In this document: piece by piece, positions 5,503 to 59,615 of the stretch
How positions within the stretch are numbered: the first letter of the stretch is position 1
How the letters are laid out: each line of letters begins with the position of its first letter
Assembly (NCBI GenBank): GCA_041648975.1
Contig: JBAZNZ010000003.1
Span: 9,664-73,663, forward strand
Origin: Candidatus Omnitrophota bacterium
GTDB taxonomy: Bacteria > Omnitrophota > Gorgyraeia > 2-01-FULL-45-10
DNA length: 64,000 nucleotides
Direction: 5' to 3'
The notes under the pieces: model-generated
Databases searched by the model: none
What the model was told of the DNA's origin: nothing
The model's input: only the letters and a program-made list of their open reading frames with translations
Program-made: the position numbers and the translations under genes

Positions 5503-5509
5503 GACATGT

Positions 5510-7820: not shown

Positions 7821-7836
7821 AATATAAGAGAGAGAT

Positions 7837-9591
7837 ATGTCCTGGAAAAGAGCCCTGCCTATTTTCCTCATTGGCTATATCGCGGCTAATTTAGTTTATG
7901 CTTCGCAAAAGACGGTTCTTGTAGATCCCGATGGCGCGTCGCGCGGAATGTTTGCGGTAATGGCCAAAGAGATCACACAGGATATCGCCTCGTCGAGATC
8001 TTTCTCCGCAGCCCGGATACTGCGGATAGTCAAAAAATATAATGCGCATTACCAGGTAGGCCCCGAACCGCTTTTTGTATGGACGCCGCTCCAATTATCC
8101 TACCTGTACCCATTAAGCTTTATTCCTCTTGATCACGAATTTGTCTTTGCCCTCACGAATCTTGCTTTTCTCATACTCCTGGCTGTATTCATATATAAAT
8201 TGGCTTATCTGACATTCGAGAATGAGGGATACGCGTTAATATCAAGCATATTATTTTTACTGCATCCCATTGTTTTCGATACCGCCATATCCTTGAGGCG
8301 GGGAATGGGGGAGACGGCTTTTCTTACAGCCGCAAGCTACTGTTTTGTCGTGTTTTTGAAGACCCGCAGCATAAGAGCGTTCCTCGATTCACTTATCATA
8401 GCGCTTATCGGCTTCTTTTACAGAGAAACAATGCTTCTTCCCGTCGTTGCCATTTGTGCGCTCGGAGTTTTCGTTATATCCCGCAATATACCATGGCCCG
8501 AGTATGCTAAAGGCTTTCTACGCTACCGCGGCAGGTTATCGGTGATCGCGGTATTATGCCTTATTCTTTTTTTATACCTGTCCTCTGAGATATATATGAC
8601 TAAAAAAGGCGTAGGAACCCTTTTAACGAAGGGAAAAGAATATAACAGCCAGCGCGTGAAGAATGTGGCCGTTAAAGGTCTCGTTACCATGGACGATTAT
8701 TTTAAAGTGGAGTCTGTATACGCGCCGCTTAGATTTGACAGGAACCTGTTTGAAAAGATGGAGCAGACGCAACCGGAGTTTTACTCAAAGATTCGGCTCA
8801 TAGAATCACGGTTTGGCATCCCGCACTATAAAAAATCATTTTTTATCGCAAGCACCATCTTTTATCAATGGTATCTTCTGCCTTTTTTCATTATAGGGAT
8901 CATCGCGGCCCGCAAAGCCGCTAAGATACGATATGCGTCCGGCTTTATCCTGTTCTCCGCGCTCCTTTACTTCGCGGCGCTCTCGCTGACAGGCACTATA
9001 CCCGATTTCAGCCTTCCTATGATACCCGCTGTCATGATATTTTGTACTTTAGGGATATTCGAAGTCGCCGGTAACCTGAATAAGTATTTAAAGGCCGCTT
9101 TATTTTGCGGGCTTTTTTTCATAATTACAATAAGCGGTTTATATGCGTTGCAAAATATCCAACTTCACCAAAGGATGCATGTAAGGTCTTCGCTGGTCAT
9201 AAGCGACATATTAAAAGATAACAGCGGAGGCGCTCCTTTTACATTAATGGTGGACAGCTATGTCGCTCCGGAATACGGCCTTCGCGCTGTTCAAATGGAT
9301 AAAGCAGGCGTGATGTATCTATTACCGGTTTCCGCTTTCACATTGAAGAAAGATAGATTGGCGGATTGCATGAAAAGGAAAGGGCTTAATCGGAGGTCGG
9401 GCTTTCTGGGCGATATATCCTGCCCTGGAATAGAATATATCGCGGCATTTTCCGAAAAACAATATGACTATTACAATTCGATAATATCGCCGGCAAAGAT
9501 GCCTTTCAATATAGATATGGTAATAAGCGAGCCTAGCGCCGCCACGAAAACATATATATATAAGAGGAATGATGATTACGACATTATTTAA
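7837..9591 (+). CDS. Polytopic membrane protein, putative GT-C fold glycosyltransferase (ArnT/PMT-like) with C-terminal soluble domain
   Basis: 584 aa with more than 10 predicted transmembrane segments, then an about 130 aa hydrophilic C-terminus. Sits immediately downstream of a Dpm1-like GT2, as in the ArnC/ArnT and GtrB/GtrC pairs. Confidence 0.5.
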   Translation: MSWKRALPIFLIGYIAANLVYASQKTVLVDPDGASRGMFAVMAKEITQDIASSRSFSAARILRIVKKYNAHYQVGPEPLFVWTPLQLSYLYPLSFIPLDHEFVFALTNLAFLILLAVFIYKLAYLTFENEGYALISSILFLLHPIVFDTAISLRRGMGETAFLTAASYCFVVFLKTRSIRAFLDSLIIALIGFFYRETMLLPVVAICALGVFVISRNIPWPEYAKGFLRYRGRLSVIAVLCLILFLYLSSEIYMTKKGVGTLLTKGKEYNSQRVKNVAVKGLVTMDDYFKVESVYAPLRFDRNLFEKMEQTQPEFYSKIRLIESRFGIPHYKKSFFIASTIFYQWYLLPFFIIGIIAARKAAKIRYASGFILFSALLYFAALSLTGTIPDFSLPMIPAVMIFCTLGIFEVAGNLNKYLKAALFCGLFFIITISGLYALQNIQLHQRMHVRSSLVISDILKDNSGGAPFTLMVDSYVAPEYGLRAVQMDKAGVMYLLPVSAFTLKKDRLADCMKRKGLNRRSGFLGDISCPGIEYIAAFSEKQYDYYNSIISPAKMPFNIDMVISEPSAATKTYIYKRNDDYDII

Positions 9592-12765: not shown

Positions 12766-12774
12766 AGGCAGGAC

Positions 12775-23191: not shown

Positions 23192-24267
23192 AAGTGTTAT
23201 TTATAGTTCCGTATCCGAACGAAGGCGCCTCTAACCGTCTCAGGGTGGAGCAGTTCCTGCCGTATTTAAGAGCGAACGGCATAGAATATACCTTAAGGCC
23301 GTTTATCGGAAGGGGCTTTTACAGGATATTATACCTGCGTCATAAATACTTGAAGAAGATATTGTTCTTCATTTTTGCCACAGTGGCCAGGATCTCGGAC
23401 ATATTCAGGGCCATGGCGCATGATATAATATTTATTCACCGCGAGGCGTATCCATTCGGCCCGCCCGTATTCGAACATATATTCCGCTGTCTCGGCAAGC
23501 CGATCATATACGATTTCGACGACGCGATATTTTTGCGCAATACGAGCGGTATAAATAATTACATCGAGAGGTTTAAGAATCCGGGTAAGATATCGGGGAT
23601 AGTAAGCCTAAGCCGGTATGTCATAGCCGGCAACCGGTATCTTCGCGATTTCGCGGCTAGATTTAATATAAATGTTATAATAATACCCACCACCATAGAT
23701 ACCGATATGTACCGTCCGCCGGCCAGGCGGCCGGACAAAAAAGAAGTGGTCATAGGATGGATAGGGAGCAATACGACAAGAAGGTTCCTGCGGGATATGG
23801 AGGACGTATTCAAAGAATTGTCCGCCCGTTACGACAATCTGGTATTCAAGATCGTCGGCGGTTATCATCACTCCGAATTAAAGAACGTCGTGAATATTGA
23901 ATGGTCCATGGAAAGAGAGATAGAGCTCCTGGGGACATTCGATATCGGCATAATGCCGATGCCGGACGATGAATGGACGCGCGGGAAGTGCGCTTTCAAG
24001 GCGATACTGTATATGGCATGCGGTATCGTGCCGGTCTGCTCTCCCGTTGGGGTGAATACGGAGGTCGTGCAGGACGGGGTGAACGGTTACCTGGCCAACG
24101 ACAAGAGCGAATGGGTCGGGAAACTATCGGCCCTCATAGAGGATAGGGGCCTGAGGGAAAGGATGGCCGCCTCGGCCAGGGCCCTTGTGGAAAAAAAATA
24201 TTCGGTGAAAACTTATGAGCCGGTTTTTCTCAGGACATTGAGAGCGGCGGGAAGTGAAAATGGCTAG
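23188..24267 (+). CDS. Glycosyltransferase family 4
   Basis: MKVLFIVPYPNEGASNRL, IGWIGSNT, CGIVPVCSPVGVNTEVV. Confidence 0.8.
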   Translation: MKVLFIVPYPNEGASNRLRVEQFLPYLRANGIEYTLRPFIGRGFYRILYLRHKYLKKILFFIFATVARISDIFRAMAHDIIFIHREAYPFGPPVFEHIFRCLGKPIIYDFDDAIFLRNTSGINNYIERFKNPGKISGIVSLSRYVIAGNRYLRDFAARFNINVIIIPTTIDTDMYRPPARRPDKKEVVIGWIGSNTTRRFLRDMEDVFKELSARYDNLVFKIVGGYHHSELKNVVNIEWSMEREIELLGTFDIGIMPMPDDEWTRGKCAFKAILYMACGIVPVCSPVGVNTEVVQDGVNGYLANDKSEWVGKLSALIEDRGLRERMAASARALVEKKYSVKTYEPVFLRTLRAAGSENG

Positions 24268-25681
24268 GATAGCGTTCCTTCAGCATATATGGTACGAGAC
24301 AATGGGCCCCATGTATCTCTCGGCGTCGGTCAAGGCCCGCGGCCACGAATGCGAAATGTTCATAGGCAGGGAGGACAGGATACTGGATGAGATCACGCGT
24401 TACAGGCCGGACATAGCGTGCTTTTCCGTCATGACGGCGCAGTTTCCCTGGGCCATAGCCCTGGCCGAGAAGATAAAGAGAAGTAACAGCGATATCGTCG
24501 TAGCTTTCGGCGGCGCGCATCCGACATTTTTCCCTGAAATGATAGAAGAGAAATCTGTCGATGTGATATGCGTCGGAGAAGGTGAACTCGCTTTGTCGGA
24601 GCTTGCCGACGCCCTAGACGCCGGGAAGGATATCACGGCTATAAAGAACCTGCATGTAAAACCAGGGGGCAGGGTCTATAAAAACGAGGTCAGGGACTTC
24701 GTGTCCGATATCGATACCCTGCCGCCGCCTGACAGGGCGCTCTACTACAAGTATCCTTTTCTGGCGAAAAGCCCTGAGAAATCGTTCATGTGCGGCAGGG
24801 GATGCCCTTATAACTGCACCTTCTGTTTCAACCATATATACATGCGTCTTTACAAGGACAAGGGGCCGTTCGTAAGATATCGGAAGGTGGAGAGCGTGAT
24901 CAGGGAGCTTATCGATGTGAAGAGTAAATACGGCCTTGAGCTCGTATACTTCCAGGACGACACATGGGTGCTTAACAAAAAATGGCTGTATGAATTCCTG
25001 CCGCGATATAAAAAAGAGGTGAGGCTTCCCTTCATAGCTTATGTGCGGGGCAATATGGTCGATGATGAACTCGCTTTCAAGCTAAAGGATGCGGGCTGCA
25101 GGGTGGTCGATATGGGGGTCGAGACCGGTGATGAGGCGCGCCGCAACGCGATACTGAAAAAAGGGATAACGGATTTCGATCTGGAGAACGCGGCCCGGTT
25201 ATTCCGGAAGCACAAACTTATGTTCAGGACCACAAATATGCTGGGCCTGCCGGGAGAGACGATTGACCAAGCGCTGAGGACCCTCGATGTCAACATTAAA
25301 CTCAGGCCGAATTTCAGCTGGTGCTCGATATTCCAGCCGTTCCCAAAACTCGAGCTTACGGATATGGCCATAGCAGAGGGGTATATTCCTAAGGATGGGA
25401 GTCTGAAGATAGGGGGGTCATACAAAACGAGCCTTCTGAATATGCCGGACATAAAACGCATCGTAAACCTCCAAAAATTCTTCATAATAACGGTCAAGTA
25501 TCCGTCGCTGTCGCCGCTGGTCAAAATATTGATACGGTTTCCAAATAATGCCCTGTATGATGTTATCGGATTTTTATGCTACGCTTTCATGTATTACAGA
25601 TACACGGGCACAAGTTTCATAAGGCTTCTAAGGGAAGCGGTCAGGATGTTCTCGGAAAAAAGCTATGAACATGTATCATAG
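24260..25681 (+). CDS. B12-binding radical SAM protein, copy 4
   Basis: CGRGCPYNCTFCFNH. GTG 24254 / ATG 24260 start with 8-nt overlap of the upstream stop. Confidence 0.85.
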   Translation: MARIAFLQHIWYETMGPMYLSASVKARGHECEMFIGREDRILDEITRYRPDIACFSVMTAQFPWAIALAEKIKRSNSDIVVAFGGAHPTFFPEMIEEKSVDVICVGEGELALSELADALDAGKDITAIKNLHVKPGGRVYKNEVRDFVSDIDTLPPPDRALYYKYPFLAKSPEKSFMCGRGCPYNCTFCFNHIYMRLYKDKGPFVRYRKVESVIRELIDVKSKYGLELVYFQDDTWVLNKKWLYEFLPRYKKEVRLPFIAYVRGNMVDDELAFKLKDAGCRVVDMGVETGDEARRNAILKKGITDFDLENAARLFRKHKLMFRTTNMLGLPGETIDQALRTLDVNIKLRPNFSWCSIFQPFPKLELTDMAIAEGYIPKDGSLKIGGSYKTSLLNMPDIKRIVNLQKFFIITVKYPSLSPLVKILIRFPNNALYDVIGFLCYAFMYYRYTGTSFIRLLREAVRMFSEKSYEHVS

Positions 25682-25693
25682 CGGAAGACGGCA

Positions 25694-26665
25694 ATGATCG
25701 TAAAGACATACAGGTTAAAAGACAGAGGGGCCGCCGGCCAGGATATCTCGTCCTGGACAGAGGATTGGGATAAGGTGCAAAACCTGGCCCGGGGCGCGGA
25801 AGGCACAGACCGAAACCACCTCTCTTTCTTCCTGAAGAAATATTTTCCGCGCCCGCCCGCCAGGATACTCGACGGCGGATGCGGCACGGGCAGATATGTG
25901 ATATCGTACAGGTCAAAAGGATATGACATTACGGGGGTGGATTTCTCCGAGGAGACTATCAGGCGCATCAAGGCGGAGATGGGTGAGGATTATCCCGTCC
26001 AAACAGCTGATATAACGGCCCTTCCGTTCAAAGACGATGCGTTCGACTGCTATTTATCCGGCGGCGTAATGGAGCATTTCGAGGACGGCCCCGACAGGGC
26101 GCTTAGGGAAGCGCACAGGGTCCTGAAAAAAGGGAGCGGTATATTGCTTATGACCGTTCCTTATGTCAATGTCATTCGGAGGACACGGCTTTGTATTTCA
26201 GGCAAGAGGAAGGCCGGCGGACTTTTCCATAGAGTGGTTAAGAAGTGCGGTGTAGATACGGACAGCTGTCCGGGCCTATTATTTTGCGAATACGCTTTTG
26301 ACGCAGGCTCGATAAGTTTTTATCTTGAGAATAACGGGTTTAAAGTGAAGAAGGTCTACCCTACGGATTTTTTATGGGGTGAAATCGGTTCCCTGCTGCG
26401 CCGGTTTATGGTATCGCCACGCGCATCGTCGGGGACAGCGCCGCAGAAGACAGTATCCGCCGGCCAGATGGTAAGGGCCGGAATGGGACGTAATAATGCG
26501 ATAAGGGACACGATGTATGACCTGTTCGTTACGGAGAACAGAGAAAGATTGTTGTATAGATCGACGATCGGCAAGCTTAACCACCTGAGTGGTCATATGG
26601 TGCTCATAGTAGCCAGAGTTCTGCCGCGAACTGCGCAAGGAGAGGATGTCCATGAGCGAAAATAA
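25694..26665 (+). CDS. Class I SAM-dependent methyltransferase (type 11/12)
   Basis: ILDGGCGTGRYV motif I, GGVMEHFED post-I region. Confidence 0.8.
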   Translation: MIVKTYRLKDRGAAGQDISSWTEDWDKVQNLARGAEGTDRNHLSFFLKKYFPRPPARILDGGCGTGRYVISYRSKGYDITGVDFSEETIRRIKAEMGEDYPVQTADITALPFKDDAFDCYLSGGVMEHFEDGPDRALREAHRVLKKGSGILLMTVPYVNVIRRTRLCISGKRKAGGLFHRVVKKCGVDTDSCPGLLFCEYAFDAGSISFYLENNGFKVKKVYPTDFLWGEIGSLLRRFMVSPRASSGTAPQKTVSAGQMVRAGMGRNNAIRDTMYDLFVTENRERLLYRSTIGKLNHLSGHMVLIVARVLPRTAQGEDVHERK

Positions 26666-27401
26666 TAACGTAGATGTCAGCATAATCGTAGCCTGTTATA
26701 ATGACGCCCCTCATCTAAAGAACAATGTCGGCCAGATCATGGATATAATGGATACGACCAGATACTCATACGAGATCATATTTGTAGACGACAAGAGCCG
26801 CGATAATTCCAGGGATATGATAGATCAGATCATCGCCGAGCATCCCGGCCGGCGCCTGAGTAAAAAATTCCACGAACAGAATATGGGAAGAGGCCGCAGC
26901 GTTACCGACGGATTTATCGCCGCGAAAGGGAGGATCATGGGATATCTCGACATCGACCTCGAGATACACGCAAGGTATATACCTTCGGTGCTGCTCGAAA
27001 TAGAAAAAGGCGCCGACTTTGTCATTGCCAGAAGATTATTCGACCTCAATTATCATTCCATCGTACGGTTCATAGTGAGCAAGGGCTATATCAGGTTCTC
27101 CGGCATGGTCCTAGGCATGAAGGGGATAGATTCGGAAAGCGGGTTTAAGTTCTTTAACAGGAAGACGATGATGGGGGTAATAAATAGCGTCAAGGACGGC
27201 CACTGGTTCTGGGACACGGAGGTCGTCTGCCGGTCGAGACTCGCCGATAAAAAGATCATCGAGGTGCCGGCTCTATTTGTAAAATTACCGCACAAGCCCA
27301 GTACCGTAAGATTTTCAAAGGATATTGCCGATTATGTAATAAAGATATTCAAGTTCAGGCGGGAACTGCGGGAAGATATATGCAAAACAAAAGGGAGGTG
27401 A
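26646..27401 (+). CDS. GT2 polyprenyl-phosphate glycosyltransferase (Dpm1-like), second copy
   Basis: VSIIVACYNDAPHL...YEIIFVDDKSRDNS. Confidence 0.8.
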   Translation: MSMSENNNVDVSIIVACYNDAPHLKNNVGQIMDIMDTTRYSYEIIFVDDKSRDNSRDMIDQIIAEHPGRRLSKKFHEQNMGRGRSVTDGFIAAKGRIMGYLDIDLEIHARYIPSVLLEIEKGADFVIARRLFDLNYHSIVRFIVSKGYIRFSGMVLGMKGIDSESGFKFFNRKTMMGVINSVKDGHWFWDTEVVCRSRLADKKIIEVPALFVKLPHKPSTVRFSKDIADYVIKIFKFRRELREDICKTKGR

Positions 27402-27403
27402 AC

Positions 27404-29218
27404 ATGTCATACATATCATACGTGGCGGCTTTCGTATGTCTGTTTGCGGCTGGTTTTCTCACGACCCTTTTTACGCTCGAGATAAAGTCGATATACATAC
27501 AAGGAATATTTTGGAAGATGCCGCTCCCGGTAATATATTGGGGATTGGCTGTTCTATACGCATTCACCCATAGCAGGTTGTTTAAGGCCGGTTTTAAGAA
27601 CTCCCTGGCTCGTATAATAAAGCCCTGGCTCCTGGCGGAGCTGGCCGTTTTGCTGGTCGATCTTCATGTCAGGCTTGGCGCTTCAAATCCGCTTAACAAG
27701 GTGTATATGGTATACGTGATTGCTGTTATGCTGGCCGTTTTTGCCCTTGTGGGGTATCTTGCCGCGTGTTTTGCGAAAGACTGCTTTACAAAAAAGAGCG
27801 GTTTATTTGACATCGGATTAATATATCTTATGACATTCATTGCGCTTTCGGGCATTCTTTTGAAAAGCGGATTTGTTGCGGGGCTTCTGGCGATGGTTGG
27901 AGCGTTCGGCGCGTCGTTCGTCGTTGACGCCGGCGTCACATTCGGAAGAGCAGCGCGCGCAGTTTCGAAATTCTTTGAGAAGAGATGGAAATTCCTTGTA
28001 TTTGTGTATCTGCTGGCGGTCATTCTTCGCATCATGTTCGGGGTGATACTCATAATACAGACTGGGGAGCGTTTTACCGTCGCCAGCTGCGACGGACTCA
28101 GCTACGACGAGAACGCGCAGATGATAGCCAAGGATTTCAAATCCCTTTTTGACGGCTCGCTCGTCTTCGTCGTATTCGGTCCCTACTATTGGATATTCTT
28201 AGGCCTTATTTATAAAATATTCGGCAGGAACTTCTATGCGGTATCTTTCATACAGAGCATCCTGGCCTCTTTCATGGCGCCGCTGGTCTATTATATTATG
28301 CTCAAACTGACCAGCCAGGAGAGGATGGCCAGGCTTGCCGCCATATTGACGGCATTGTGCATGTCGCTTGTATATCTTGCCGCGGTGCTCCAGCCCGAGG
28401 CTCTCATGATACCGCTATTATACCTGTATGTGCTTTTACTGGCAGGCTATTCCGAAAAAGGAAAAAATATTATAGGTATATCGGCACTAACAGGGCTCGT
28501 CTTCGGCCTCATGAACGGCGTGCGGTCCATAATGGTCCTCTTTCCGGTGTTCGCCTTTATATGGCTTCTCTTTTTTGTAAAAAGCATGGGCCTGAGGTCG
28601 AAGGTGGTCAACTTCATACTGTTCCTCGCCGTTACGTTCATCGCGACCTACCCGGCGGAATACATGTACTCAAAATACCGGAACGCCGATTTTACGCAAG
28701 ATGCAAATACGCTCGTCATAAGCCAGGGGGTGGGGACGTTCAGGCACCATCATTCGGAACTCGACAAGCTCGGCTTCAACCCGTTCGCCAGTATCACAGG
28801 CTCGATAAAGGCGCTCCAGGAGCATCCCGTCGAGATCCCCACCATATTCCTTAAGAAAGTAGCGGTCAACATCCATGCCTTCTTTTTCATAACGTTCTTC
28901 GGGTTCTTCAATCCTTTTATTCTCGTCCTGCCGTCCAGGTACTATAACGCTTTCGGCTCGTACATGCTTTCCTACATATACATCTTTATCATACTTGGCG
29001 CATTCCTGTGGTTCTCGAAAAAAAACAGGCGGGACCTCGTCTGGCTGTTTTTCCTGATCTTTGTGTATTATTTCATATCGCATCCTCTGTTTTTTACCAT
29101 AAGGACCGGCCGCCACAGGGCGCCGCTCCATCCGTTCTTTATTATGCTGTTCGTGATAGGTTTCTATTATGTATGGGATTGTATTAAAAAATGGGAAAAG
29201 AACCGGAAGATAAAATGA
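27404..29218 (+). CDS. Polytopic membrane protein, putative GT-C (ArnT/PMT-like) glycosyltransferase, second copy
   Basis: About 604 aa, hydrophobic throughout. GGGAGGTG Shine-Dalgarno at 27393-27400 precedes ATG 27404. Downstream of a Dpm1-like GT2. Confidence 0.5.
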   Translation: MSYISYVAAFVCLFAAGFLTTLFTLEIKSIYIQGIFWKMPLPVIYWGLAVLYAFTHSRLFKAGFKNSLARIIKPWLLAELAVLLVDLHVRLGASNPLNKVYMVYVIAVMLAVFALVGYLAACFAKDCFTKKSGLFDIGLIYLMTFIALSGILLKSGFVAGLLAMVGAFGASFVVDAGVTFGRAARAVSKFFEKRWKFLVFVYLLAVILRIMFGVILIIQTGERFTVASCDGLSYDENAQMIAKDFKSLFDGSLVFVVFGPYYWIFLGLIYKIFGRNFYAVSFIQSILASFMAPLVYYIMLKLTSQERMARLAAILTALCMSLVYLAAVLQPEALMIPLLYLYVLLLAGYSEKGKNIIGISALTGLVFGLMNGVRSIMVLFPVFAFIWLLFFVKSMGLRSKVVNFILFLAVTFIATYPAEYMYSKYRNADFTQDANTLVISQGVGTFRHHHSELDKLGFNPFASITGSIKALQEHPVEIPTIFLKKVAVNIHAFFFITFFGFFNPFILVLPSRYYNAFGSYMLSYIYIFIILGAFLWFSKKNRRDLVWLFFLIFVYYFISHPLFFTIRTGRHRAPLHPFFIMLFVIGFYYVWDCIKKWEKNRKIK

Positions 29219-30654
29219 AAAAGGCGTTCCTTTTATATCCGCCTACCGGATTGTACGACAGGTCGGACCGCTGCCAGTCGTACCTGGAGAGTGAAACAGG
29301 GGCTTTGGTCTCTCCTCCGATGGACATACTTTATATGGCCGCTGTATTGGAGAAGGCCGGATACAGATGCTTTGTCAGGGACTATACCATCGAAAAGAAA
29401 GGGTGGGCCGATGTGCGCCTGGACCTCGAGAGAGAGCTGCCTTCCGTGCTCGTTGTGAGCACAACGATGTCTACGCTGAAAGAGGACTTGAAGGCCTGCG
29501 ATATGGCTAAGGGCATTAAACCTGACTGTCTAACGGTCGCTAAAGGAGGATATGTAGGGGATGACAGCGAGGCGCTGCTCAGGGTCAACGGGAACCTGGA
29601 TATATTTATCAATAACGAACCGGAATTCGTGATTCGGGAGATAGTTTCTCTATCGCGCCTGCAGGATATAAGAGGCATAAGCTATAGGGCATACGGCCGG
29701 ACCTTCACAAACCAGCCCAGGCCTTTTGGGGACGATCTCGATTCTCTTCCTCTGCCTGCCAGGCACCTGATAAGGAACGAATTATACAGGATGCCGGACA
29801 CGCGCAGACGGTTCACGACCATATTGACAGGAAGGGGCTGTCCGTTCAAATGCATTTATTGCATGGCAGGTAAGGTCGGCGGCGCACACCTGAGGCTGCG
29901 ATCGCCGGAGAACATCGTCCGCGAGCTTGAAGAATGCATGACGCGGTTCGGCATAAAGGATTTCTGGATGAGGGCGGACACGTTCACTTTCGATAAGAAG
30001 TGGGTTGCCGAGATATGCCGTCTTATCACAGATAAGGGGCTGCATATAAAGTGGATGACGAACAGCCGCGTGGACAGGATAGACGATGAGATGCTGTACG
30101 CGATGAAACGTTCAGGCTGCACGGTAATAGGTTTCGGCATAGAGAGCGGCAACCAGGGACTTCTCGACAGGATGAAGAAGGGTATAACCCTGGAGCAGTC
30201 GCGCAGGGCCGTGGAGATGTGCCGAAAGCACCGGATAAAGACCTACCTTAACTTCATCGTAGGGCTTCCCTGGGAAAGCGAGGAGACTTTCGAAGAGACG
30301 ATAAGGTTCGCGAAGTCGTTAAAGGCGGATATGTATAATTTCAGCATCTCATACCCATTTCCGGGGACGGAGTTGTATGAATATGTGAAAGAGAAAGGGC
30401 TCCTGAAGTCCGACGAGGATCTGAAGACTTACGGGTTTTTCGAGCCCGTCGCGGATACGCATTACATGAAGCGCGAGAGGCTGGGCCGGCTGAAGGAGGC
30501 CGCTTTCAGGAAGGTCATGCTCGACCCGCGTTTCGTTCTCAGGACCATATCGAATATGAGGTCGCCCGCCTTGATCGCGGCTTATTGCAGGGAAGCGGCG
30601 CGGCTTTTAGGCGTAATCTACGGGAAAACCAGGAAAGGGAAAGGGCCGAGATGA
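29215..30654 (+). CDS. B12-binding radical SAM protein, copy 5
   Basis: MKKAFLLYPP start (ATGA overlap), TGRGCPFKCIYCMAG. Confidence 0.85.
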   Translation: MKKAFLLYPPTGLYDRSDRCQSYLESETGALVSPPMDILYMAAVLEKAGYRCFVRDYTIEKKGWADVRLDLERELPSVLVVSTTMSTLKEDLKACDMAKGIKPDCLTVAKGGYVGDDSEALLRVNGNLDIFINNEPEFVIREIVSLSRLQDIRGISYRAYGRTFTNQPRPFGDDLDSLPLPARHLIRNELYRMPDTRRRFTTILTGRGCPFKCIYCMAGKVGGAHLRLRSPENIVRELEECMTRFGIKDFWMRADTFTFDKKWVAEICRLITDKGLHIKWMTNSRVDRIDDEMLYAMKRSGCTVIGFGIESGNQGLLDRMKKGITLEQSRRAVEMCRKHRIKTYLNFIVGLPWESEETFEETIRFAKSLKADMYNFSISYPFPGTELYEYVKEKGLLKSDEDLKTYGFFEPVADTHYMKRERLGRLKEAAFRKVMLDPRFVLRTISNMRSPALIAAYCREAARLLGVIYGKTRKGKGPR

Positions 30655-31421
30655 CCGGAAAAAGAGTGTCGGACTCATGGGAGGAATTCCTTAGCCGCGG
30701 CGGGGTCTATTTCCCGAAAGATGTGGACAGAGGATTCTTTTCGGACATATTGTCATCGCGCTGGGTAGTATCCCTATTGAAGGACGGATCCCGTAAAAAA
30801 TTCCTGTCGGCGGGATGCGGGCTGGGAAGGTTTGCCATTGCCATAGCCGCAGCAGGGCGGGATGTTGCTTTGATGGATTGTTCGGAAGAGTCTCTCAACG
30901 CCGCTAGACTGCTGGGGGAGATAGCCAAACGGCACTTCGGCGACATTAGCATCAGGTTCTTAAAGGACGACTTGGAACGTACCTCGTTCGCGGACGGCGA
31001 GTTCGATGTTACATTTAATGAGGGCGTTGTGGAGCACTGGCTTGACCGCGGCGAGAGGATAAAGGTGATAAAGGAAATGGCGAGGATAACAAGGGATGGA
31101 GGGGTTGTTTCGATAAGGGTAATTAATAATAAGAACCCTTTATATAATCTCATATACAAGAAAGCGCTGAGGGAAGACGTGCCTGCGCACCACAGGTATG
31201 ACATGAGAGAGCTAAAGGCCGAGATGGAAGACGCAGGGCTCGATCCTGTCCTGTGGGACGGTGAGACGATCAATGATCCGGACGAATACTCCGCGAACAA
31301 GCTCCTGATAAAGACGCTTCGCATTGCGGCCCTGGCAATAAACACGGCCCCCAAATTCGTCAGGGAGGCTTTCTGTCCTTCGATATTCTGCACGGCGATT
31401 GTAAGGAGGACGCGGCCATGA
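30651..31421 (+). CDS. Class I SAM-dependent methyltransferase, second copy
   Basis: LSAGCGLGRFAIA motif I, EGVVEHW. ATGA overlap with the upstream gene. Confidence 0.75.
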   Translation: MTGKRVSDSWEEFLSRGGVYFPKDVDRGFFSDILSSRWVVSLLKDGSRKKFLSAGCGLGRFAIAIAAAGRDVALMDCSEESLNAARLLGEIAKRHFGDISIRFLKDDLERTSFADGEFDVTFNEGVVEHWLDRGERIKVIKEMARITRDGGVVSIRVINNKNPLYNLIYKKALREDVPAHHRYDMRELKAEMEDAGLDPVLWDGETINDPDEYSANKLLIKTLRIAALAINTAPKFVREAFCPSIFCTAIVRRTRP

Positions 31422-32830
31422 GAGCGCTTTTAATAAACCCTTCGCAGGAAAAAGTCTACGGGATGAAGATGTCGCAGATATATCCGCCGCTGGGGCTACT
31501 CTACGTCGGCACTGTCATTAAACTATTAGGACACGAGGTTCGGCTGCTGGATATAGATATCGATAAAGTGACGCCTGTATCGTTCAGGGAAAAATTATCC
31601 GGCTTCAAACCCGGACTTATAGTTATAACGAGCGTCACTCCTACGGTCAAAGACGCCTTAAGCTGGGCGCGCGCCGTCAAAGAATACGACAGTTCCATCA
31701 GGGTTATCATAGGCGGGATACATGCCACTATCGATCCCGTCGTTACGGCCGAAAAGAAAGAGATAGATTTTGTGGTCGTGGGGGAAGGCGAGAAGACTGT
31801 CGAAGAGCTGGTAAAGGCGATCGATGAAGGGAAGAACGATTATTCCGGGATAAGCGGAATATTATATAAAGAGGGCGGGCGGGTCATCCGTAATAAACCG
31901 CGCGAGTTGATAGCGAACCTCGACGATATAACATTCCCGGACAGGAGCCTCCTCCGGTCGCTCAATGATTATGTCCCGCCCGATGCGGTGCGCACTCCGG
32001 TCGCGACCATAATGACTTCAAGGGGCTGCCCGGGCGATTGCACATTTTGCTGCACCAAACAGATATTCACCAGGCATGTCAGGCTTAGAAGCGTGAAGAA
32101 TATAATGGATGAGATTGATATGCTGGTCGCCCAGCACGGCGTTAAAGAGATACATATAGCGGATGACACATTTACGATAAATAAGCAAAGGGTGCTTGAT
32201 TTCTGCAAAGCGATCCTGCAGAGAAATTATGACCTGACACTCGAGTTCATGAACGGCATCAGGGCGGACTGCGTGGATGAGGACATATTGAAGGCGCTCA
32301 GGTCGATAAAGGTAAGGAACGTCGGTTTCGGAGTTGAATCCGGCAATAAGGAAGTGTTGAAGCTCGCCAGGAAGAACATAAGCCTGGATAGGGTAAGGAG
32401 CGCTTTCAAGCTGGCCAAAAAATTCGGCTTCGAGACGTGGGCGTTTTTCATCATAGGGCTTCCGGGAGAGACTGAACAAAGCGTCAGGGAGTCGATAGAT
32501 TTTGCCAAGGAGCTCGATCCGGATTTTGCAAAGTTCCTGATACTTAAGCCTTATCCCGGCAGCGAAGCATTCAGCTACCTTTCGGAAAGAGCTCTTATAG
32601 ATAATTATGATTATGACATGTACGGAGTATATACACAGCCCGTACATCACCTGCCGGGGATGTCAAAAGACGACATGATACGGTGGCAGAAGAAGGCTTT
32701 TACCGGTTTCTATCTGCGCCCCTCGAAAGTGATGAGCCATTTACTTCGGATAAGGTCCCTGACTCAGCTGTCCCTTGTAGCGCGCGGCTTTGTGTTCGTT
32801 GTTTTCAATATATTCAAAAGGCGGAAATAA
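31418..32830 (+). CDS. B12-binding radical SAM protein, copy 6
   Basis: MRALLINPSQ, SRGCPGDCTFCCTK. AAGGAGGA Shine-Dalgarno at 31403-31410. Confidence 0.85.
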   Translation: MRALLINPSQEKVYGMKMSQIYPPLGLLYVGTVIKLLGHEVRLLDIDIDKVTPVSFREKLSGFKPGLIVITSVTPTVKDALSWARAVKEYDSSIRVIIGGIHATIDPVVTAEKKEIDFVVVGEGEKTVEELVKAIDEGKNDYSGISGILYKEGGRVIRNKPRELIANLDDITFPDRSLLRSLNDYVPPDAVRTPVATIMTSRGCPGDCTFCCTKQIFTRHVRLRSVKNIMDEIDMLVAQHGVKEIHIADDTFTINKQRVLDFCKAILQRNYDLTLEFMNGIRADCVDEDILKALRSIKVRNVGFGVESGNKEVLKLARKNISLDRVRSAFKLAKKFGFETWAFFIIGLPGETEQSVRESIDFAKELDPDFAKFLILKPYPGSEAFSYLSERALIDNYDYDMYGVYTQPVHHLPGMSKDDMIRWQKKAFTGFYLRPSKVMSHLLRIRSLTQLSLVARGFVFVVFNIFKRRK

Positions 32831-32833
32831 GAG

Positions 32834-33565
32834 ATGAGAGCGAAAAATATAAAGCGCGCGGCCATTATTCTGGTGTGCGTGTTAATAGTCGCCGGCGTTC
32901 TTAACTTACAGGTTTCAATACGGCAGAACATCGACGGTAAGACGCGGAGGATCACTATGCCGCTTTATGTGAAGTGGATAGAGTTTCTGTCGCGCCATTA
33001 TGAATACGACAGGATCGCGAAAGAGGTCGCCTCCTCCCGCAGGACGGACGCGGAAAAGGCATTGGCCATTTTTAAATGGACCGGCGATAGTATTAAAAAA
33101 GTGCCGCAAGGCATGCCGGTAGTAGATGACCATATCTATAATATTATCGTGAGGGGGTACGGCACCGACAGCCAATCGCAGGACGTCTTTACTACACTCT
33201 GTTCCTATGCTCATGTGCCGGCATTCTGGGAGAGGGTCTACTACAACGACCGCAAGTCGATGTTCATTATGTCATTTGTCAAATTGAACGGCAAGTGGGC
33301 TATCTTCGATTCGTATAATGGGACGTATTTCATGACCGCGGACGGGAAGATTGCTACTATCGATGATATGTCCGGCAAGGACTTCGGGGATTCGTCTTAT
33401 AGGGGAGTTCCTTTTAGCGAGCTGAAACAGGAATTGGAGCGTATTTTGAATGAAAAAAGGACGACTCGTCCCGAGAAACAGATGCCCGCAAGAAGGATAT
33501 GGTTTGAGATCAAAAAAGTCTTGGGTATAGAGAAAGAGGATGAGAAGGAGAGCGGAGAGGTATAA
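32834..33565 (+). CDS. Hypothetical membrane-anchored protein (possible transglutaminase-like Cys/His domain)
   Basis: N-terminal transmembrane helix AAIILVCVLIVAGVL. Segment GYGTDSQSQDVFTTLCSYAHVPAFWERVYY loosely resembles the transglutaminase-core Cys region. Confidence 0.4.
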   Translation: MRAKNIKRAAIILVCVLIVAGVLNLQVSIRQNIDGKTRRITMPLYVKWIEFLSRHYEYDRIAKEVASSRRTDAEKALAIFKWTGDSIKKVPQGMPVVDDHIYNIIVRGYGTDSQSQDVFTTLCSYAHVPAFWERVYYNDRKSMFIMSFVKLNGKWAIFDSYNGTYFMTADGKIATIDDMSGKDFGDSSYRGVPFSELKQELERILNEKRTTRPEKQMPARRIWFEIKKVLGIEKEDEKESGEV

Positions 33566-33635: not shown

Positions 33636-34133
33636 ATGAATAGAAAATTGGAGATGGCTCAGGATAAATTCATAGAGAGCATAGGTAAGCTATGCGGCAG
33701 CTTCGGTCTTAACAAATTTGTTGCGCAACTATATGCTGTGCTTTATCTTAGCAACAAGCCGCTGTCTCTGGATGAGATGGCTGAGGAACTCGAAGTCAGT
33801 AAAGGCAGTGTCAGTATTAATATCAGGGAACTGGAGAAATGGGGCGCTGTAAAGAATATATGGGTAAAGGGTTCCAGGAAGGACTATTATGAGGCCGAAC
33901 TTGATATAAAGAAGGTATTTGCCAACAAGCTGAGATCGGCAGTGCAGAAGAGGATAGCGGAAGTATCCAACATGACGGATGAATTCAAGAAGATAACAAA
34001 GTCCGCCGCGACTGAGCTTACCGATGAGGAGAAGGTCATAGCGCAGGTATATGAGGAGCGGTTGAAGAAGATAGAGGAGTTGAAGGCTATGGCTGCGACC
34101 GCGTTGAGCCTCGCGGAAAAATTTCTACAATAG
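33636..34133 (+). CDS. GbsR/MarR-type winged-helix transcriptional regulator
   Basis: FIESIGKLCGSFGLNKFVAQLYAVLYLSNKPLSLDEMAEELEVSKGSVSINIRELEKWGAV matches the GbsR/MarR_2 helix-turn-helix pattern. Confidence 0.6.
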   Translation: MNRKLEMAQDKFIESIGKLCGSFGLNKFVAQLYAVLYLSNKPLSLDEMAEELEVSKGSVSINIRELEKWGAVKNIWVKGSRKDYYEAELDIKKVFANKLRSAVQKRIAEVSNMTDEFKKITKSAATELTDEEKVIAQVYEERLKKIEELKAMAATALSLAEKFLQ

Positions 34134-39306: not shown

Positions 39307-39314
39307 GGGGCAAA

Positions 39315-39938: not shown

Positions 39939-39949
39939 GGAAATATGTC

Positions 39950-47130: not shown

Positions 47131-47147
47131 GAGAAGGCGGGTGCGAT

Positions 47148-52060: not shown

Positions 52061-52062
52061 GC

Positions 52063-58816: not shown

Positions 58817-58819
58817 GAG

Positions 58820-59611: not shown

Positions 59612-59615
59612 CCGT

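What the first reader, a model, noticed from the sequence alone, without database searches (positions are those of the whole stretch)
24260..31421. Repeated cassette architecture: B12-rSAM plus class I methyltransferase, then (GT2 Dpm1-like plus GT-C) in between
Gene order is B12-rSAM (24260), SAM-MTase (25694), Dpm1-like GT2 (26646), GT-C-like membrane protein (27404), B12-rSAM (29215), SAM-MTase (30651), B12-rSAM (31418). The two rSAM-plus-MTase pairs share architecture (GGVMEHF versus EGVVEHW in the MTases). They flank a polyprenyl-P-sugar synthase/GT-C pair of the type used for periplasmic, lipid-carrier-dependent glycosyl transfer. This suggests a modular sequence: make a polyprenyl-P-monosaccharide, methylate it (C- and O/N-methylation), then transfer it outside the cytoplasm.
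Basis: partly seen in the sequence, partly recalled or inferred. Interest (0 to 1): 0.55.

Follow-up and report, generated by a model that had tools for sequence, protein, structure and literature searches.

The report
Radical-SAM-decorated lipid-carrier glycosylation module
An uncultured Omnitrophota bacterium carries a conserved gene block that most likely loads a sugar onto a membrane lipid carrier, alters it with three radical enzymes and a methylase, and attaches it outside the cytoplasm; the genes and order are as reported, but the two "cassettes" are not duplicates.

Summary
The reported gene order is correct. It reads B12-type radical SAM (rSAM_A), class I methyltransferase (MT_A), Dpm1/GtrB/ArnC-like GT2, GT-C, rSAM_B, MT_B, rSAM_C. 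All seven genes sit in one tightly overlapping operon inside a 64 kb surface-glycan cluster of an Omnitrophota MAG.

The duplication idea fails. rSAM_A and rSAM_B share 25% identity, the weakest of rSAM_A's matches to paralogs near the block. The two methyltransferases share 28% over the SAM-binding core only.

What is conserved is a block: rSAM_A-[X]-GT2-GT-C-rSAM_B-MT_B-rSAM_C(-transglutaminase-like)-HTH. Its parts recur at 50-75% identity in four other metagenomic loci with different flanks. Slot X holds MT_A only in this window. Relatives carry a WecE/ArnB-like aminotransferase there, or nothing.

The GT-C defines an uncharacterised subfamily of about 600 aa with an extra N-terminal membrane domain of about 200 aa. 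Across distant members it sits beside B12-type radical SAMs, class I methyltransferases and a polyprenyl-phosphate sugar synthase, either a GT2 or a UbiA-type phosphoribosyltransferase.

The lipid-carrier, periplasmic-transfer reading is therefore well supported. "C-methylation" is not established. rSAM_B's nearest relatives are AprD4, a cobalamin-free sugar dehydratase, and HpnJ, which makes a cyclitol. I found no literature on this association.

The parts
24260..25681 (+). rSAM_A: B12-binding-domain radical SAM enzyme, 473 aa, with CPYNCTFC at residue 182. Conserved first gene of the block.
   Evidence: Pfam B12-binding 73 bits and Radical_SAM 73 bits. Orthologues are 72% identical in L002 and 68% in L052. 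rSAM_A-like genes lie directly upstream of a GT-C in L032, L035, L053 and L054. The best NCBIfam match is HpnJ at 120 bits, far below the 578-bit cut-off.
25694..26665 (+). MT_A: class I SAM methyltransferase, 323 aa. It occupies the variable slot X and is specific to this genome.
   Evidence: Methyltransf_11 at 3e-21. No orthologue in any fetched locus; the best hit is 60 bits. The slot holds a DegT aminotransferase in L002, L003 and L031 and is absent in L052.
26652..27401 (+). GT2: soluble GT-A glycosyltransferase of 249 aa, resembling polyprenyl-phosphate sugar synthases (Dpm1, GtrB, ArnC).
   Evidence: Glycos_transf_2 at 7e-20. PDB best hits are DPMS 5mlz at 7e-11, GtrB 5ekp and ArnC. The DID and SGF motifs align with DPMS. 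No TM helix is predicted. Orthologues are 66% identical in L002 and 39% in L052, where the gene is relocated.
27380..29218 (+). GT-C glycosyltransferase, 612 aa. Residues 1-200 (27380-27980) form an extra N-terminal domain of about six helices with no family match. Residues 200-612 are the GT-C core, with Asp238 and Asp243 in the first outer loop.
   Evidence: PMT_2 at 36 bits, above the 26-bit cut-off. D238 and D243 are invariant. The AF2 model has pLDDT 75, and Foldseek hits are STT3, AglB, PglB, ALG3, ArnT and Pmt. The N-terminal part has no Pfam hit at E<=1. In the exhaustive search, 135 cluster representatives match at E<=1e-10, and most of the best-scoring ones are about 600 aa and align from query residues 10-50, so they share the extension.
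29191..30654 (+). rSAM_B: radical SAM enzyme, 487 aa, with a weak B12-domain signal, CPFKCIYC at residue 217, and further family-invariant Cys at 28, 249, 276 and 310.
   Evidence: Radical_SAM 103 bits and B12-binding 34 bits. The AF2 model has pLDDT 90, and the best Foldseek match is AprD4 6fd2 with TM 0.73/0.78, followed by MgmA. The best NCBIfam match is HpnJ at 221 bits, below the 578-bit cut-off. Orthologues are 67-70% identical in L002, L051 and L052.
30651..31421 (+). MT_B: class I SAM methyltransferase, 256 aa, with ATGA-type 4-nt overlaps with both rSAM neighbours. Conserved member of the block.
   Evidence: Methyltransf_11 at 2e-15. Orthologues are 52-56% identical in L002, L051 and L052. 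The best PDB match is the D-glucose O-methyltransferase 6uv6 at 1.6e-7.
31418..32830 (+). rSAM_C: B12-binding-domain radical SAM enzyme, 470 aa, with CPGDCTFC at residue 204.
   Evidence: B12-binding 80 bits and Radical_SAM 101 bits. Orthologues are 69% identical in L002, 75% in L051 and 54% in L052, and L031 has a 577-bit match. The best NCBIfam match is BchE at 242 bits, below the 481-bit cut-off.
32834..33565 (+). Membrane-anchored transglutaminase-core-like protein, 243 aa. It travels with the block in some relatives.
   Evidence: Transglut_core is weak at 1e-3. One N-terminal TM helix is predicted. The orthologue is 55% identical in L051, and a homologue lies at the block edge in L052.
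33636..34133 (+). MarR/TrmB-like HTH regulator, 165 aa, conserved at the 3' end of the block.
   Evidence: HTH_11 and MarR_2. It is 71% identical in L002 and 70% in L051.
5462..9591 (+). A second, non-orthologous triad of the same logic in the same cluster: a B12-rSAM (5462-6943), a Dpm1/AglJ-like GT2 (6936-7820) and a GT-C without the N-terminal extension (7837-9591).
   Evidence: Pfam. NCBIfam gives AglJ 91 bits, Dol-P-hexose transferase 70 bits and PpgS 55 bits for the GT2. The two GT2s are 26% identical, and the two GT-Cs give no BLAST hit.

Best explanation
The region is a conserved operon module for lipid-carrier-dependent glycosylation outside the cytoplasm, and it uses a radically tailored sugar. 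The soluble GT2 transfers a monosaccharide from a nucleotide sugar to polyprenyl (undecaprenyl) phosphate at the inner face of the membrane. Three cytoplasmic radical SAM enzymes of the B12-binding-domain class (A, B, C) and the methyltransferase MT_B remodel that sugar, either before or after it is loaded on the lipid. In this genome the extra methyltransferase MT_A adds a further modification, whereas relatives use a WecE/ArnB-like aminotransferase in that position. After the lipid-linked sugar is flipped, the GT-C transfers it to an envelope acceptor, most likely the polysaccharide or LPS made by the surrounding cluster. The logic is that of ArnB/ArnC/ArnT or GtrB/GtrC.

What is shown: the domain identities, the GT-C fold, the operon structure, conservation of the block, and its family-wide linkage to rSAMs, methyltransferases and polyprenyl-P-sugar synthases.

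What is inferred: the substrate, the order of steps, the chemistry of each rSAM (C-methylation, dehydration or ring contraction), the acceptor, and any role of the GT-C N-terminal domain.
For: 1. Domains and operon.

2. GT2. It is nearest to DPMS, GtrB and ArnC, with the catalytic DxD aligned.

3. GT-C. The fold and the invariant Asp loop are confirmed.

4. Orthologous blocks in different flanking contexts:
- L002: A-DegT-GT2-GTC-B-MT_B-C-HTH, at 50-72% identity.
- L051: GTC-B-MT_B-C-TGl-HTH, followed by nonulosonic acid genes.
- L052: TGl-A-GTC-B-MT_B-C-GT2.
- L003 and L004: fragments of the same block.

5. Distant members of the N-extended GT-C subfamily, at about 25-30% identity (L030, L031, L032, L035, L047-L050), again sit next to B12-rSAMs and class I MTases. 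They also have either a GT2 or a UbiA protein. The UbiA proteins tested (L047, L048) score above the NCBIfam cut-off for decaprenyl-phosphate phosphoribosyltransferase, at 298 and 274 bits against 234.

6. A B12-rSAM lies within 3 kb of the GT-C in 9 of 15 loci with the extension, against 1 of 23 loci without it (Fisher p=2.5e-4).

7. Starting instead from rSAM_B homologues, all three contexts with enough flank contain PMT_2 GT-Cs and MTases. The fourth, L051, is cut at the contig end, and a GT-C C-terminal fragment remains there.

8. The slot-X aminotransferase in L002 scores 471 bits, above the 375-bit cut-off for dTDP-4-amino-4,6-dideoxygalactose transaminase, and 263 bits to ArnB. This gives an ArnB-ArnC-ArnT-like gene order.

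9. A B12-rSAM fused to a GT4 in the same cluster (20486-23191) suggests that this class of enzyme works alongside glycosyl transfer here.
Against: - No substrate or product is known, and everything comes from uncultured organisms.
- No dedicated flippase is recognisable: there is no GtrA, ArnE/F or SMR domain, and the GT-C N-terminal domain has no family match.
- The GT2 scores far below every NCBIfam equivalog cut-off and lacks the C-terminal TM helices of GtrB and ArnC. It could therefore be an ordinary GT-A acting on a lipid-PP-oligosaccharide.
- The rSAMs could act on other sugars of the 64 kb cluster, which holds 8 B12-type rSAMs.
- The contexts used for the statistic are few and not phylogenetically independent.
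- In L054 no GT2 or UbiA gene is visible within the 11 kb held.
Confidence: 0.55

Rival explanations
1. The two rSAM-plus-methyltransferase pairs are a tandemly duplicated tailoring module, one C-methylation and one O/N-methylation each, flanking the GT2/GT-C pair.
For: The domain architecture is the same. The GGVMEHF and EGVVEHW motifs align. rSAM-then-MTase adjacency recurs in other loci, for example L032, L047 and L052.
Against: - rSAM_A versus rSAM_B is 25% identity and 125 bits, lower than A versus C (171 bits) or B versus C (212 bits).
- The methyltransferases share 28% over 125 aa of the generic SAM-binding core and differ in length, 323 versus 256 aa.
- Orthologues in other genomes are 52-75% identical, so the paralogues split long before these lineages did.
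- MT_A is absent from all related blocks.
Confidence: 0.05
2. The block is a lipid-carrier glycosylation module, but one or more of the radical SAM enzymes are not methylases. They would carry out sugar 1,2-diol dehydration or deoxygenation (like AprD4), oxidation to a keto sugar that feeds the aminotransferase seen in relatives, or ring contraction to a carbocycle (like HpnJ or OxsB). MT_B then methylates the product.
For: - The rSAM_B model (pLDDT 90) is structurally closest to AprD4 in complex with paromamine (TM 0.73/0.78, E 3e-29), ahead of the methylase MgmA.
- AprD4 does not bind cobalamin (PMC12931638), and the B12-domain score of rSAM_B is marginal at 34 bits against a cut-off of 32.
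- The best NCBIfam profile for rSAM_A, rSAM_B and the rSAM at 5462 is HpnJ, which makes BHT cyclitol ether from a lipid-linked glucosamine (PMC12324291).
- An rSAM sits directly next to a DegT aminotransferase in L002 and L031.
- The rSAM_B family has four extra invariant cysteines.
Against: - Identity to AprD4 is only 23%, and all NCBIfam scores are far below their cut-offs.
- Most characterised members of the class are C-methyltransferases (PMC12931638).
- rSAM_A and rSAM_C have strong B12-binding domain scores, 73 and 80 bits.
- No AprD3-like reductase is present in the block.
Confidence: 0.3
3. The genes are neighbours only because they lie in a very large, rSAM-rich glycan cluster. The rSAMs and methyltransferases would tailor other components, such as the nonulosonic acids encoded downstream or the lipid carrier or membrane lipids, and would have no functional link to the GT2/GT-C pair.
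For: The window holds 8 B12-type rSAMs, 2 other rSAMs and at least two nonulosonic acid pathways. In L051 the B-MT_B-C triad is followed by nonulosonic acid genes, as in the window.
Against: - The block keeps its composition while the flanks change. In L002 the flanks are carbamoyltransferase and SxtJ upstream and an ABC transporter with sulfate activation genes downstream.
- The association is reciprocal, from the GT-C anchor and from the rSAM_B anchor.
- It is specific to the N-extended GT-C subfamily.
- The genes overlap by 4-28 nt.
Confidence: 0.1

Closest known systems
Arn pathway of lipid A modification (ArnB aminotransferase, ArnC GT2 undecaprenyl-phosphate sugar synthase, ArnT GT-C)
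   Same: A GT2 related to ArnC by sequence (PDB 9hwj at 4.5e-7; NCBIfam PRK10714 at 45 bits) is followed by a GT-C. In the relatives L002, L003 and L031 a DegT aminotransferase with 263 bits to ArnB precedes the GT2, which gives the ArnB-ArnC-...-ArnT order. The logic is the same: build a modified sugar, load it on polyprenyl phosphate, and transfer it outside the cytoplasm.
   Different: The block has no ArnA, ArnD or ArnE/F equivalents. The GT2 lacks the C-terminal TM helices. The GT-C has an extra N-terminal six-helix domain and is not close to ArnT (Foldseek TM about 0.3). Three radical SAM enzymes and one or two methyltransferases have no counterpart in Arn.
GtrA/GtrB/GtrC O-antigen glucosylation, and DPMS plus Pmt or ALG GT-Cs
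   Same: Among solved structures, the best matches of the GT2 are Pyrococcus DPMS and the cyanobacterial GtrB. The GT-C matches PMT_2, and its Foldseek hits include Pmt, ALG3, ALG9 and ALG12.
   Different: There is no GtrA-like flippase gene. The tailoring enzymes are absent from Gtr and DPMS systems. All scores are below equivalog level.
Decaprenyl-phosphate (phospho)ribose/arabinose donors with Emb/Aft GT-Cs (UbiA-type DPPR synthase, Rv3806c family)
   Same: Distant members of this GT-C subfamily (L047-L050) are adjacent to a UbiA-family gene, and the two tested (L047, L048) pass the NCBIfam cut-off for decaprenyl-phosphate phosphoribosyltransferase. The subfamily as a whole therefore appears to use polyprenyl-monophosphate sugars.
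   Different: The window itself has a GT2, not a UbiA enzyme. No DprE1/E2-like epimerase was seen, and the GT-C is not an Emb/Aft orthologue.
B12-binding-domain (class B) radical SAM enzymes acting on sugars or lipid-linked sugars: GenK, GenD1 and MoeK5 (C-methylases), AprD4 (diol dehydratase), HpnJ (cyclitol ether formation after the GT2-like HpnI)
   Same: The domain layout and the CxxxCxxC motif match. rSAM_B is structurally closest to AprD4, and the best NCBIfam profile is HpnJ. HpnI/HpnJ is a precedent for a glycosyltransferase plus a class B rSAM working on a lipid-bound amino sugar (PMC12324291). The review PMC12931638 lists GenK, GenD1 and MoeK5 as Csp3 methylases.
   Different: None of the three proteins reaches any curated family cut-off, so they are uncharacterised subfamilies. 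The rSAM_B family is large, with more than 2,000 homologues at E<=1e-40. None of the known systems includes a GT-C.

Membership tests
Polyprenyl-phosphate glycosyltransferase (GT2; DPMS/Dpm1, GtrB, ArnC, PpgS type) | GT-A catalytic domain with a DxD motif that aligns with those enzymes | tested here: met
   Glycos_transf_2 at 7e-20. DID aligns to the DAD of PfDPMS, the SGF loop is conserved, and the alignment spans residues 7-235.
Polyprenyl-phosphate glycosyltransferase (GT2; DPMS/Dpm1, GtrB, ArnC, PpgS type) | Closest characterised relatives are polyprenyl-P sugar synthases rather than polymerising or oligosaccharide-extending GT2s | tested here: met
   The PDB ranking is DPMS 7e-11, GtrB 6e-9 and ArnC 4.5e-7, ahead of chondroitin synthase. 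The NCBIfam top hits are PgfS and ArnC.
Polyprenyl-phosphate glycosyltransferase (GT2; DPMS/Dpm1, GtrB, ArnC, PpgS type) | Reaches a curated equivalog score for a named enzyme | tested here: not met
   The best NCBIfam score is 54 bits against a cut-off of 500.
Polyprenyl-phosphate glycosyltransferase (GT2; DPMS/Dpm1, GtrB, ArnC, PpgS type) | C-terminal transmembrane anchor (GtrB, ArnC and archaeal DPMS type) | tested here: not met
   No hydrophobic segment is predicted in the 249 aa. This is compatible only with the soluble Dpm1/PpgS-like type.
Polyprenyl-phosphate glycosyltransferase (GT2; DPMS/Dpm1, GtrB, ArnC, PpgS type) | Transfers a sugar from an NDP-sugar to polyprenyl phosphate | not testable with these tools
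   Needs an enzyme assay.
GT-C fold glycosyltransferase (PMT_2 / GT39-GT83-like) | Polytopic membrane protein that matches a GT-C family model above its threshold | tested here: met
   PMT_2 at 36.3 bits against a cut-off of 26.1. About 15 or more hydrophobic helices are predicted.
GT-C fold glycosyltransferase (PMT_2 / GT39-GT83-like) | Conserved acidic motif in the first extracytoplasmic loop | tested here: met
   In SCDGLSYDENA, D238 and D243 are invariant in A1 (6 sequences, down to 26% identity), and D238 is also invariant in A2 (12 sequences).
GT-C fold glycosyltransferase (PMT_2 / GT39-GT83-like) | GT-C three-dimensional fold | tested here: met
   The AF2 model has pLDDT 75 and pTM 0.75. 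The 36 best Foldseek PDB hits are all GT-C enzymes (STT3, AglB, PglB, ALG3, ArnT, Pmt, PimE, AftA) at probability 0.89-1.0. TM is about 0.3-0.4, lowered by the extra N-terminal domain.
Cobalamin-dependent (class B) radical SAM methyltransferases | Radical SAM core with the CxxxCxxC cluster motif | tested here: met
   The motif is present in A (residue 182), B (217) and C (204).
Cobalamin-dependent (class B) radical SAM methyltransferases | N-terminal B12-binding Rossmann domain | tested here: inconclusive
   PF02310 gives A 73 bits and C 80 bits, which are clear, and B 34 bits against a cut-off of 32, which is marginal. AprD4 and ArsL have related domains but bind no cobalamin (PMC12931638).
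Cobalamin-dependent (class B) radical SAM methyltransferases | Membership of a characterised methylase subfamily (GenK, Fom3, PhpK, HpnR, MgmA, TokK and others) | tested here: not met
   All NCBIfam scores are far below their cut-offs, and the top profiles, HpnJ and BchE, are non-methylases. The best structure for rSAM_B is AprD4.
Cobalamin-dependent (class B) radical SAM methyltransferases | Binds cobalamin and transfers a methyl group to carbon | not testable with these tools
   Needs cofactor analysis and an assay.
Arn (Ara4N) lipid A modification pathway | Full gene set ArnA (dehydrogenase/formyltransferase), ArnB, ArnC, ArnD (deformylase), ArnT and ArnE/F | tested here: not met
   Only ArnC-like and ArnT-like functions are present in the block, plus an ArnB-like gene in relatives. 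The block has no formyltransferase, deformylase or SMR flippase. It works like Arn but is not a member.

The most novel reading that the evidence does not exclude
Radical SAM enzymes of the B12-binding-domain class act directly on a polyprenyl-phosphate-linked monosaccharide. They would methylate it at carbon, deoxygenate it, or contract its ring, creating a kind of lipid-linked sugar donor not yet described. A previously unrecognised GT-C subfamily would use this donor, and its extra N-terminal six-helix domain would serve as a built-in flippase or as the membrane dock for the radical enzymes. The pathway would be widespread in Omnitrophota, Aureabacteria and other anaerobic candidate phyla.
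Probability: 0.25. Interest if true: 0.75.

Novelty: new variant of a known kind. Interest (0 to 1): 0.55.

Why it matters
If the block works as inferred, lipid-carrier side-branch glycosylation of the Arn, Gtr or DPA type gains a variant whose sugar is remodelled by up to three radical SAM enzymes. That chemistry is known so far mainly from antibiotic and hopanoid pathways, not from envelope glycans.

The analysis also gives a testable function to three things. The first is a large uncharacterised family of B12-domain radical SAM proteins, with more than 2,000 homologues of rSAM_B at E<=1e-40. The second is a GT-C subfamily with a novel N-terminal membrane domain. The third is the unusual abundance of radical SAM genes in surface-glycan clusters of uncultured anaerobic phyla such as Omnitrophota, whose cell surfaces are thought to matter for their host-associated lifestyles.

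Tried and rejected
1. Tandem duplication. All-against-all BLAST of the window's rSAM, MTase, GT2 and GT-C paralogues found only family-level similarity, so this was rejected.

2. Identifying the GT-C N-terminal 200 aa. A Pfam scan at E<=1 found nothing: no GtrA, SMR or EamA. The domain remains unexplained.

3. Sequence search of the GT-C against the PDB. Only spurious TM matches came back. Structure prediction plus Foldseek was needed.

4. The word-indexed homologue search for the GT-C found only 5 close relatives and few others. The exhaustive HMMER search showed the true family size.

5. Literature. Four searches on Omnitrophota, radical SAM and glycosyltransferase, on B12-rSAM with polysaccharide, O-antigen, LPS or capsule, and on GT-C or polyprenyl returned nothing on this association.

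6. Assigning each rSAM to a named subfamily by NCBIfam. No score was above a cut-off.

7. Orthology of the rSAMs and MTases in the distant loci L047-L050 and L030-L032. These are only superfamily-level matches, 170-230 bits for rSAMs and under 50 bits for MTases. The recurring 'rSAM then MTase' adjacency there is therefore a theme, not conserved orthologous pairs.

Full report
**Observation**

The window is one continuous plus-strand surface-glycan cluster. It encodes nucleotide-sugar enzymes, two Wzx flippases, GT1, GT2 and GT4 transferases, and at least two nonulosonic acid pathways (two NeuB, three CMP-transferases). It also holds, strikingly, eight B12-binding-domain radical SAM proteins and two other radical SAM proteins.

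- rSAM_A, 24260-25681
- MT_A, 25694-26665
- GT2, 26652-27401
- GT-C, 27380-29218
- rSAM_B, 29191-30654
- MT_B, 30651-31421
- rSAM_C, 31418-32830

Gene calls on the source contig agree. Junctions are between -28 and +12 nt, and all three rSAMs have CxxxCxxC.

The source is a Candidatus Omnitrophica/Omnitrophota MAG. Identical proteins are named so in NCBI.

**Test of the duplication idea**

rSAM_A and rSAM_B share 25% identity and 125 bits. That is lower than A versus C (171 bits) or B versus C (212 bits), and of rSAM_A's matches to the window's other B12-rSAMs only those to 5462, 13860 and 54107 are weaker.

MT_A and MT_B align for only 125 residues at 28%. That stretch is the SAM-binding Rossmann core, which includes the GGVMEHF/EGVVEHW motif.

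By contrast, orthologues of rSAM_A, B and C in other genomes are 54-75% identical, and those of MT_B are 52-56% identical. The pairs are therefore not a duplicated module. They share only superfamily membership.

**Synteny**

Four other metagenomic loci carry the same genes at orthologue-level identity:
- L002 (=L005), from a MAG labelled Planctomycetia: A-DegT-GT2-GTC-B-MT_B-C-(47 aa)-HTH. Its flanks are unrelated: carbamoyltransferase and SxtJ upstream, an ABC transporter and sulfate activation genes downstream.
- L051: (GT-C C-terminus)-B-MT_B-C-TGase-like-HTH, followed by DegT, CMP-transferase and NeuB, as in the window.
- L052: TGase-like-A-GTC (split into two ORFs)-B-MT_B-C-GT2, followed by another rSAM-MTase-GT2-GTC set.
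- L003 and L004: short fragments, DegT-GT2-GTC-GTC' and GTC-B.

The conserved core is thus A, GT2, GT-C, B, MT_B and C, usually with the HTH regulator and often with a membrane-anchored transglutaminase-like protein.

MT_A is found only in the window. No fetched locus has a hit above 60 bits. Its position is occupied by a DegT aminotransferase in L002, L003 and L031. The L002 copy passes the NCBIfam cut-off for dTDP-4-amino-4,6-dideoxygalactose transaminase (471 bits against 375) and scores 263 bits to ArnB.

**The GT2 and the GT-C**

Among solved structures, the best relatives of the GT2 are Pyrococcus dolichol-phosphate mannose synthase, GtrB and ArnC. Its DID motif aligns to the DAD of DPMS, and an SGF loop is conserved. 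It has no TM segment and reaches no NCBIfam equivalog cut-off.

The GT-C scores above the PMT_2 threshold and has invariant Asp238 and Asp243 in the loop following the helix at 202-235. An AlphaFold model (pLDDT 75) matches only GT-C enzymes in the PDB: STT3, AglB, PglB, ALG3, ArnT, Pmt and PimE.

Its first 200 residues or so form about six additional helices with no family match.

An exhaustive HMMER search found 135 cluster representatives at E<=1e-10. Most of the best-scoring ones are about 600 aa and align from query residues 10-50, so they share this extension. This is an uncharacterised GT-C subfamily.

**Family-level neighbourhoods**

Distant members of the subfamily (25-30% identity) were examined in their contigs: L030, L031, L032 and L035 (Pfam check of L032) and L047-L050.
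- Each of these loci has at least one B12-domain rSAM. In most it lies within 3 kb of the GT-C, and in several it directly abuts it.
- Class I methyltransferases are present.
- A putative polyprenyl-phosphate sugar synthase is present. It is either a small GT2 or, in L047-L050, a UbiA-family protein. The two tested (L047, L048) exceed the NCBIfam cut-off for decaprenyl-phosphate phosphoribosyltransferase, at 298 and 274 bits against 234.
- L050 also has Wzy_C, a GT9 heptosyltransferase and a WecA-like gene, which suggests an LPS context.

In my count, a B12-rSAM lies within 3 kb of the GT-C in 9 of 15 loci with the extension. Most of the negatives are contigs of 2-4 kb. The figure is 1 of 23 for loci whose GT-C lacks the extension (Fisher p=2.5e-4). 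The loci are few and not phylogenetically independent.

I then anchored independently on rSAM_B homologues (more than 2,000 at E<=1e-40, spread over Omnitrophota, Aureabacteria, Elusimicrobia, Spirochaetes and Sumerlaeota). Of four contexts, three contain PMT_2 GT-Cs plus methyltransferases. The fourth is cut at the contig end, where a GT-C C-terminal fragment is still visible.

The window itself contains a second, non-orthologous rSAM / Dpm1-AglJ-like GT2 / GT-C triad at 5462-9591, and a B12-rSAM fused to a GT4 at 20486-23191.

**What the radical SAM enzymes might do**

None of A, B or C reaches any curated NCBIfam cut-off. The top profiles are HpnJ (A, B) and BchE (C), neither of which is a methylase.

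By sequence, the nearest solved structures are AprD4 and 9CCB. 9CCB is the glutamine C-methylase MgmA/QCMT.

A high-confidence model of rSAM_B (pLDDT 90, built from 50 homologues) is structurally closest to AprD4 (TM 0.73/0.78). AprD4 is the radical SAM 1,2-diol dehydratase that deoxygenates an aminoglycoside sugar. MgmA, TsrM, OxsB, CysS and TokK follow.

The 2026 review PMC12931638 states three relevant points. Most characterised B12-dependent rSAMs are C-methyltransferases, including the sugar methylases GenK, GenD1 and MoeK5. BchE, OxsB, ThnL and HpnJ catalyse other reactions. AprD4 and ArsL do not bind cobalamin.

HpnJ forms BHT cyclitol ether from the glucosaminyl hopanoid made through the HpnI glycosyltransferase (PMC12324291).

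rSAM_B has only a marginal B12-domain score, and its family has four extra invariant cysteines. A carbohydrate substrate is therefore plausible for these enzymes. C-methylation is only one of several possible chemistries, and for rSAM_B it is not the best-supported one.

The best solved relative of MT_B is a D-glucose O-methyltransferase at 1.6e-7, which is a weak hint. MT_A gives only generic hits.

**Most likely mechanism (confidence about 0.55)**

The block appears to be an Arn- or Gtr-like side-branch glycosylation module.
1. The GT2 loads a monosaccharide on polyprenyl phosphate.
2. The three cytoplasmic radical SAM enzymes and MT_B remodel the sugar, before or after loading. MT_A contributes here, and a WecE/ArnB-like aminotransferase contributes in relatives.
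3. The lipid-linked sugar is flipped.
4. The GT-C transfers it to an envelope glycan.

Shown: the domains, the folds, the operon structure, block conservation and the family-wide linkage.

Inferred: the identity of the sugar, the stage at which the rSAMs act, their chemistry, the acceptor, and the role of the N-terminal GT-C domain. A fused flippase or docking platform is an untested idea for that domain, and no separate flippase gene is recognisable.

**Rivals**
- Tandem duplication: rejected.
- The same module but with non-methylating radical chemistry (AprD4- or HpnJ-like): about 0.3 for at least one enzyme.
- Mere co-location in an rSAM-rich cluster: about 0.1. It is disfavoured by conservation across different flanks and by the reciprocal association.

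**Comparison with known systems and novelty**

The module works like ArnB/C/T, GtrB/C and the DPA/Emb-Aft systems, but it is not a member of any of them. It lacks ArnA, ArnD and ArnE/F, GtrA and DprE, and no equivalog cut-off is met.

The added radical SAM layer and the N-extended GT-C have no described counterpart. Four literature searches found nothing on such an association.

I rate it a new variant of a known kind, with interest 0.55. It is a solid and apparently unreported conserved neighbourhood that points to new sugar chemistry, but it has no biochemical evidence and only uncultured sources.

Noticed in passing
window 20486-23191 (+): A 901-aa fusion of a B12-binding radical SAM enzyme (residues about 1-430) with a GT4/GT1 glycosyltransferase (residues about 518-862). 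L029 has a 980-aa ORF with a 480-bit match to rSAM_C, which may be a similar fusion.
   Followed up: partly
window 5462-9591 (+): A second triad: a B12-rSAM, a GT2 that resembles AglJ, Dol-P-hexose transferase and PpgS, and a 584-aa weak PMT_2 GT-C without the N-terminal extension. It is not orthologous to the block under study.
   Followed up: partly
window 3177-4258 (+): Two overlapping ORFs in different frames (3177-3719 and 3476-4258). The second ends inside a partial PMT_2 match, so this may be a frameshifted or decayed GT-C gene.
   Followed up: no
window, whole (5462, 13860, 20486, 24260, 29191, 31418, 54107, 60056; plus 12775 and 55496): Eight B12-domain radical SAM genes and two other radical SAM genes (one SPASM type) lie in a single 64 kb glycan cluster. 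The seven compared pairwise are 25-33% identical to each other.
   Followed up: partly
window 34143-42510 and 46360-54110 (+): There are at least two nonulosonic acid (legionaminic/pseudaminic-type) pathways. They include NeuB at 37067 and 47127, CMP-transferases at 36486, 52057 and 58820, several DegT aminotransferases, a PglD-like acetyltransferase, a GNAT, and an AsnB-like amidotransferase at 10894.
   Followed up: no
window 45596-46363 (+): A TIM-barrel protein matches the MbnB/TglH/ChrH RiPP-modification family (PF05114, 1.6e-9). It follows two large ORFs with no Pfam match (42450-43664 and 43666-45633).
   Followed up: no
window 29191-30654; alignment A3: The rSAM_B family (50 sequences, down to 42% identity) has invariant Cys28 (in a DRCQ motif), Cys249, Cys276 and Cys310 in addition to the CxxxCxxC motif. 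This may indicate an auxiliary Fe-S cluster. Their spatial arrangement could not be checked.
   Followed up: partly
L052 1994-3638: The GT-C orthologue is split into two ORFs, matching query residues 14-274 and 330-604. This could be a frameshift, a pseudogene or an assembly error. The same contig carries a second N-extended GT-C at 11568-13328.
   Followed up: no
L002 2686-2967 and 6297-6659: In the related MAG, a 93-aa SemiSWEET-like (MtN3/PQ-loop) protein sits next to a small GT2, and an SxtJ-like protein plus a carbamoyltransferase lie just upstream of the conserved block. PAPS synthesis genes lie downstream, which suggests carbamoylated or sulfated glycans.
   Followed up: no
L003 3514-3852 and L004 28-384: The ORFs flanking the GT-C in these two short contigs also match the GT-C (109 and 137 bits). 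This suggests tandem GT-C paralogues in those organisms.
   Followed up: no
window 58046-63573 (+): An HpcH/HpaI-type aldolase, a third cytidylyltransferase, a 545-aa B12-type rSAM and an FkbH-like/HAD protein lie at the 3' end of the cluster.
   Followed up: no
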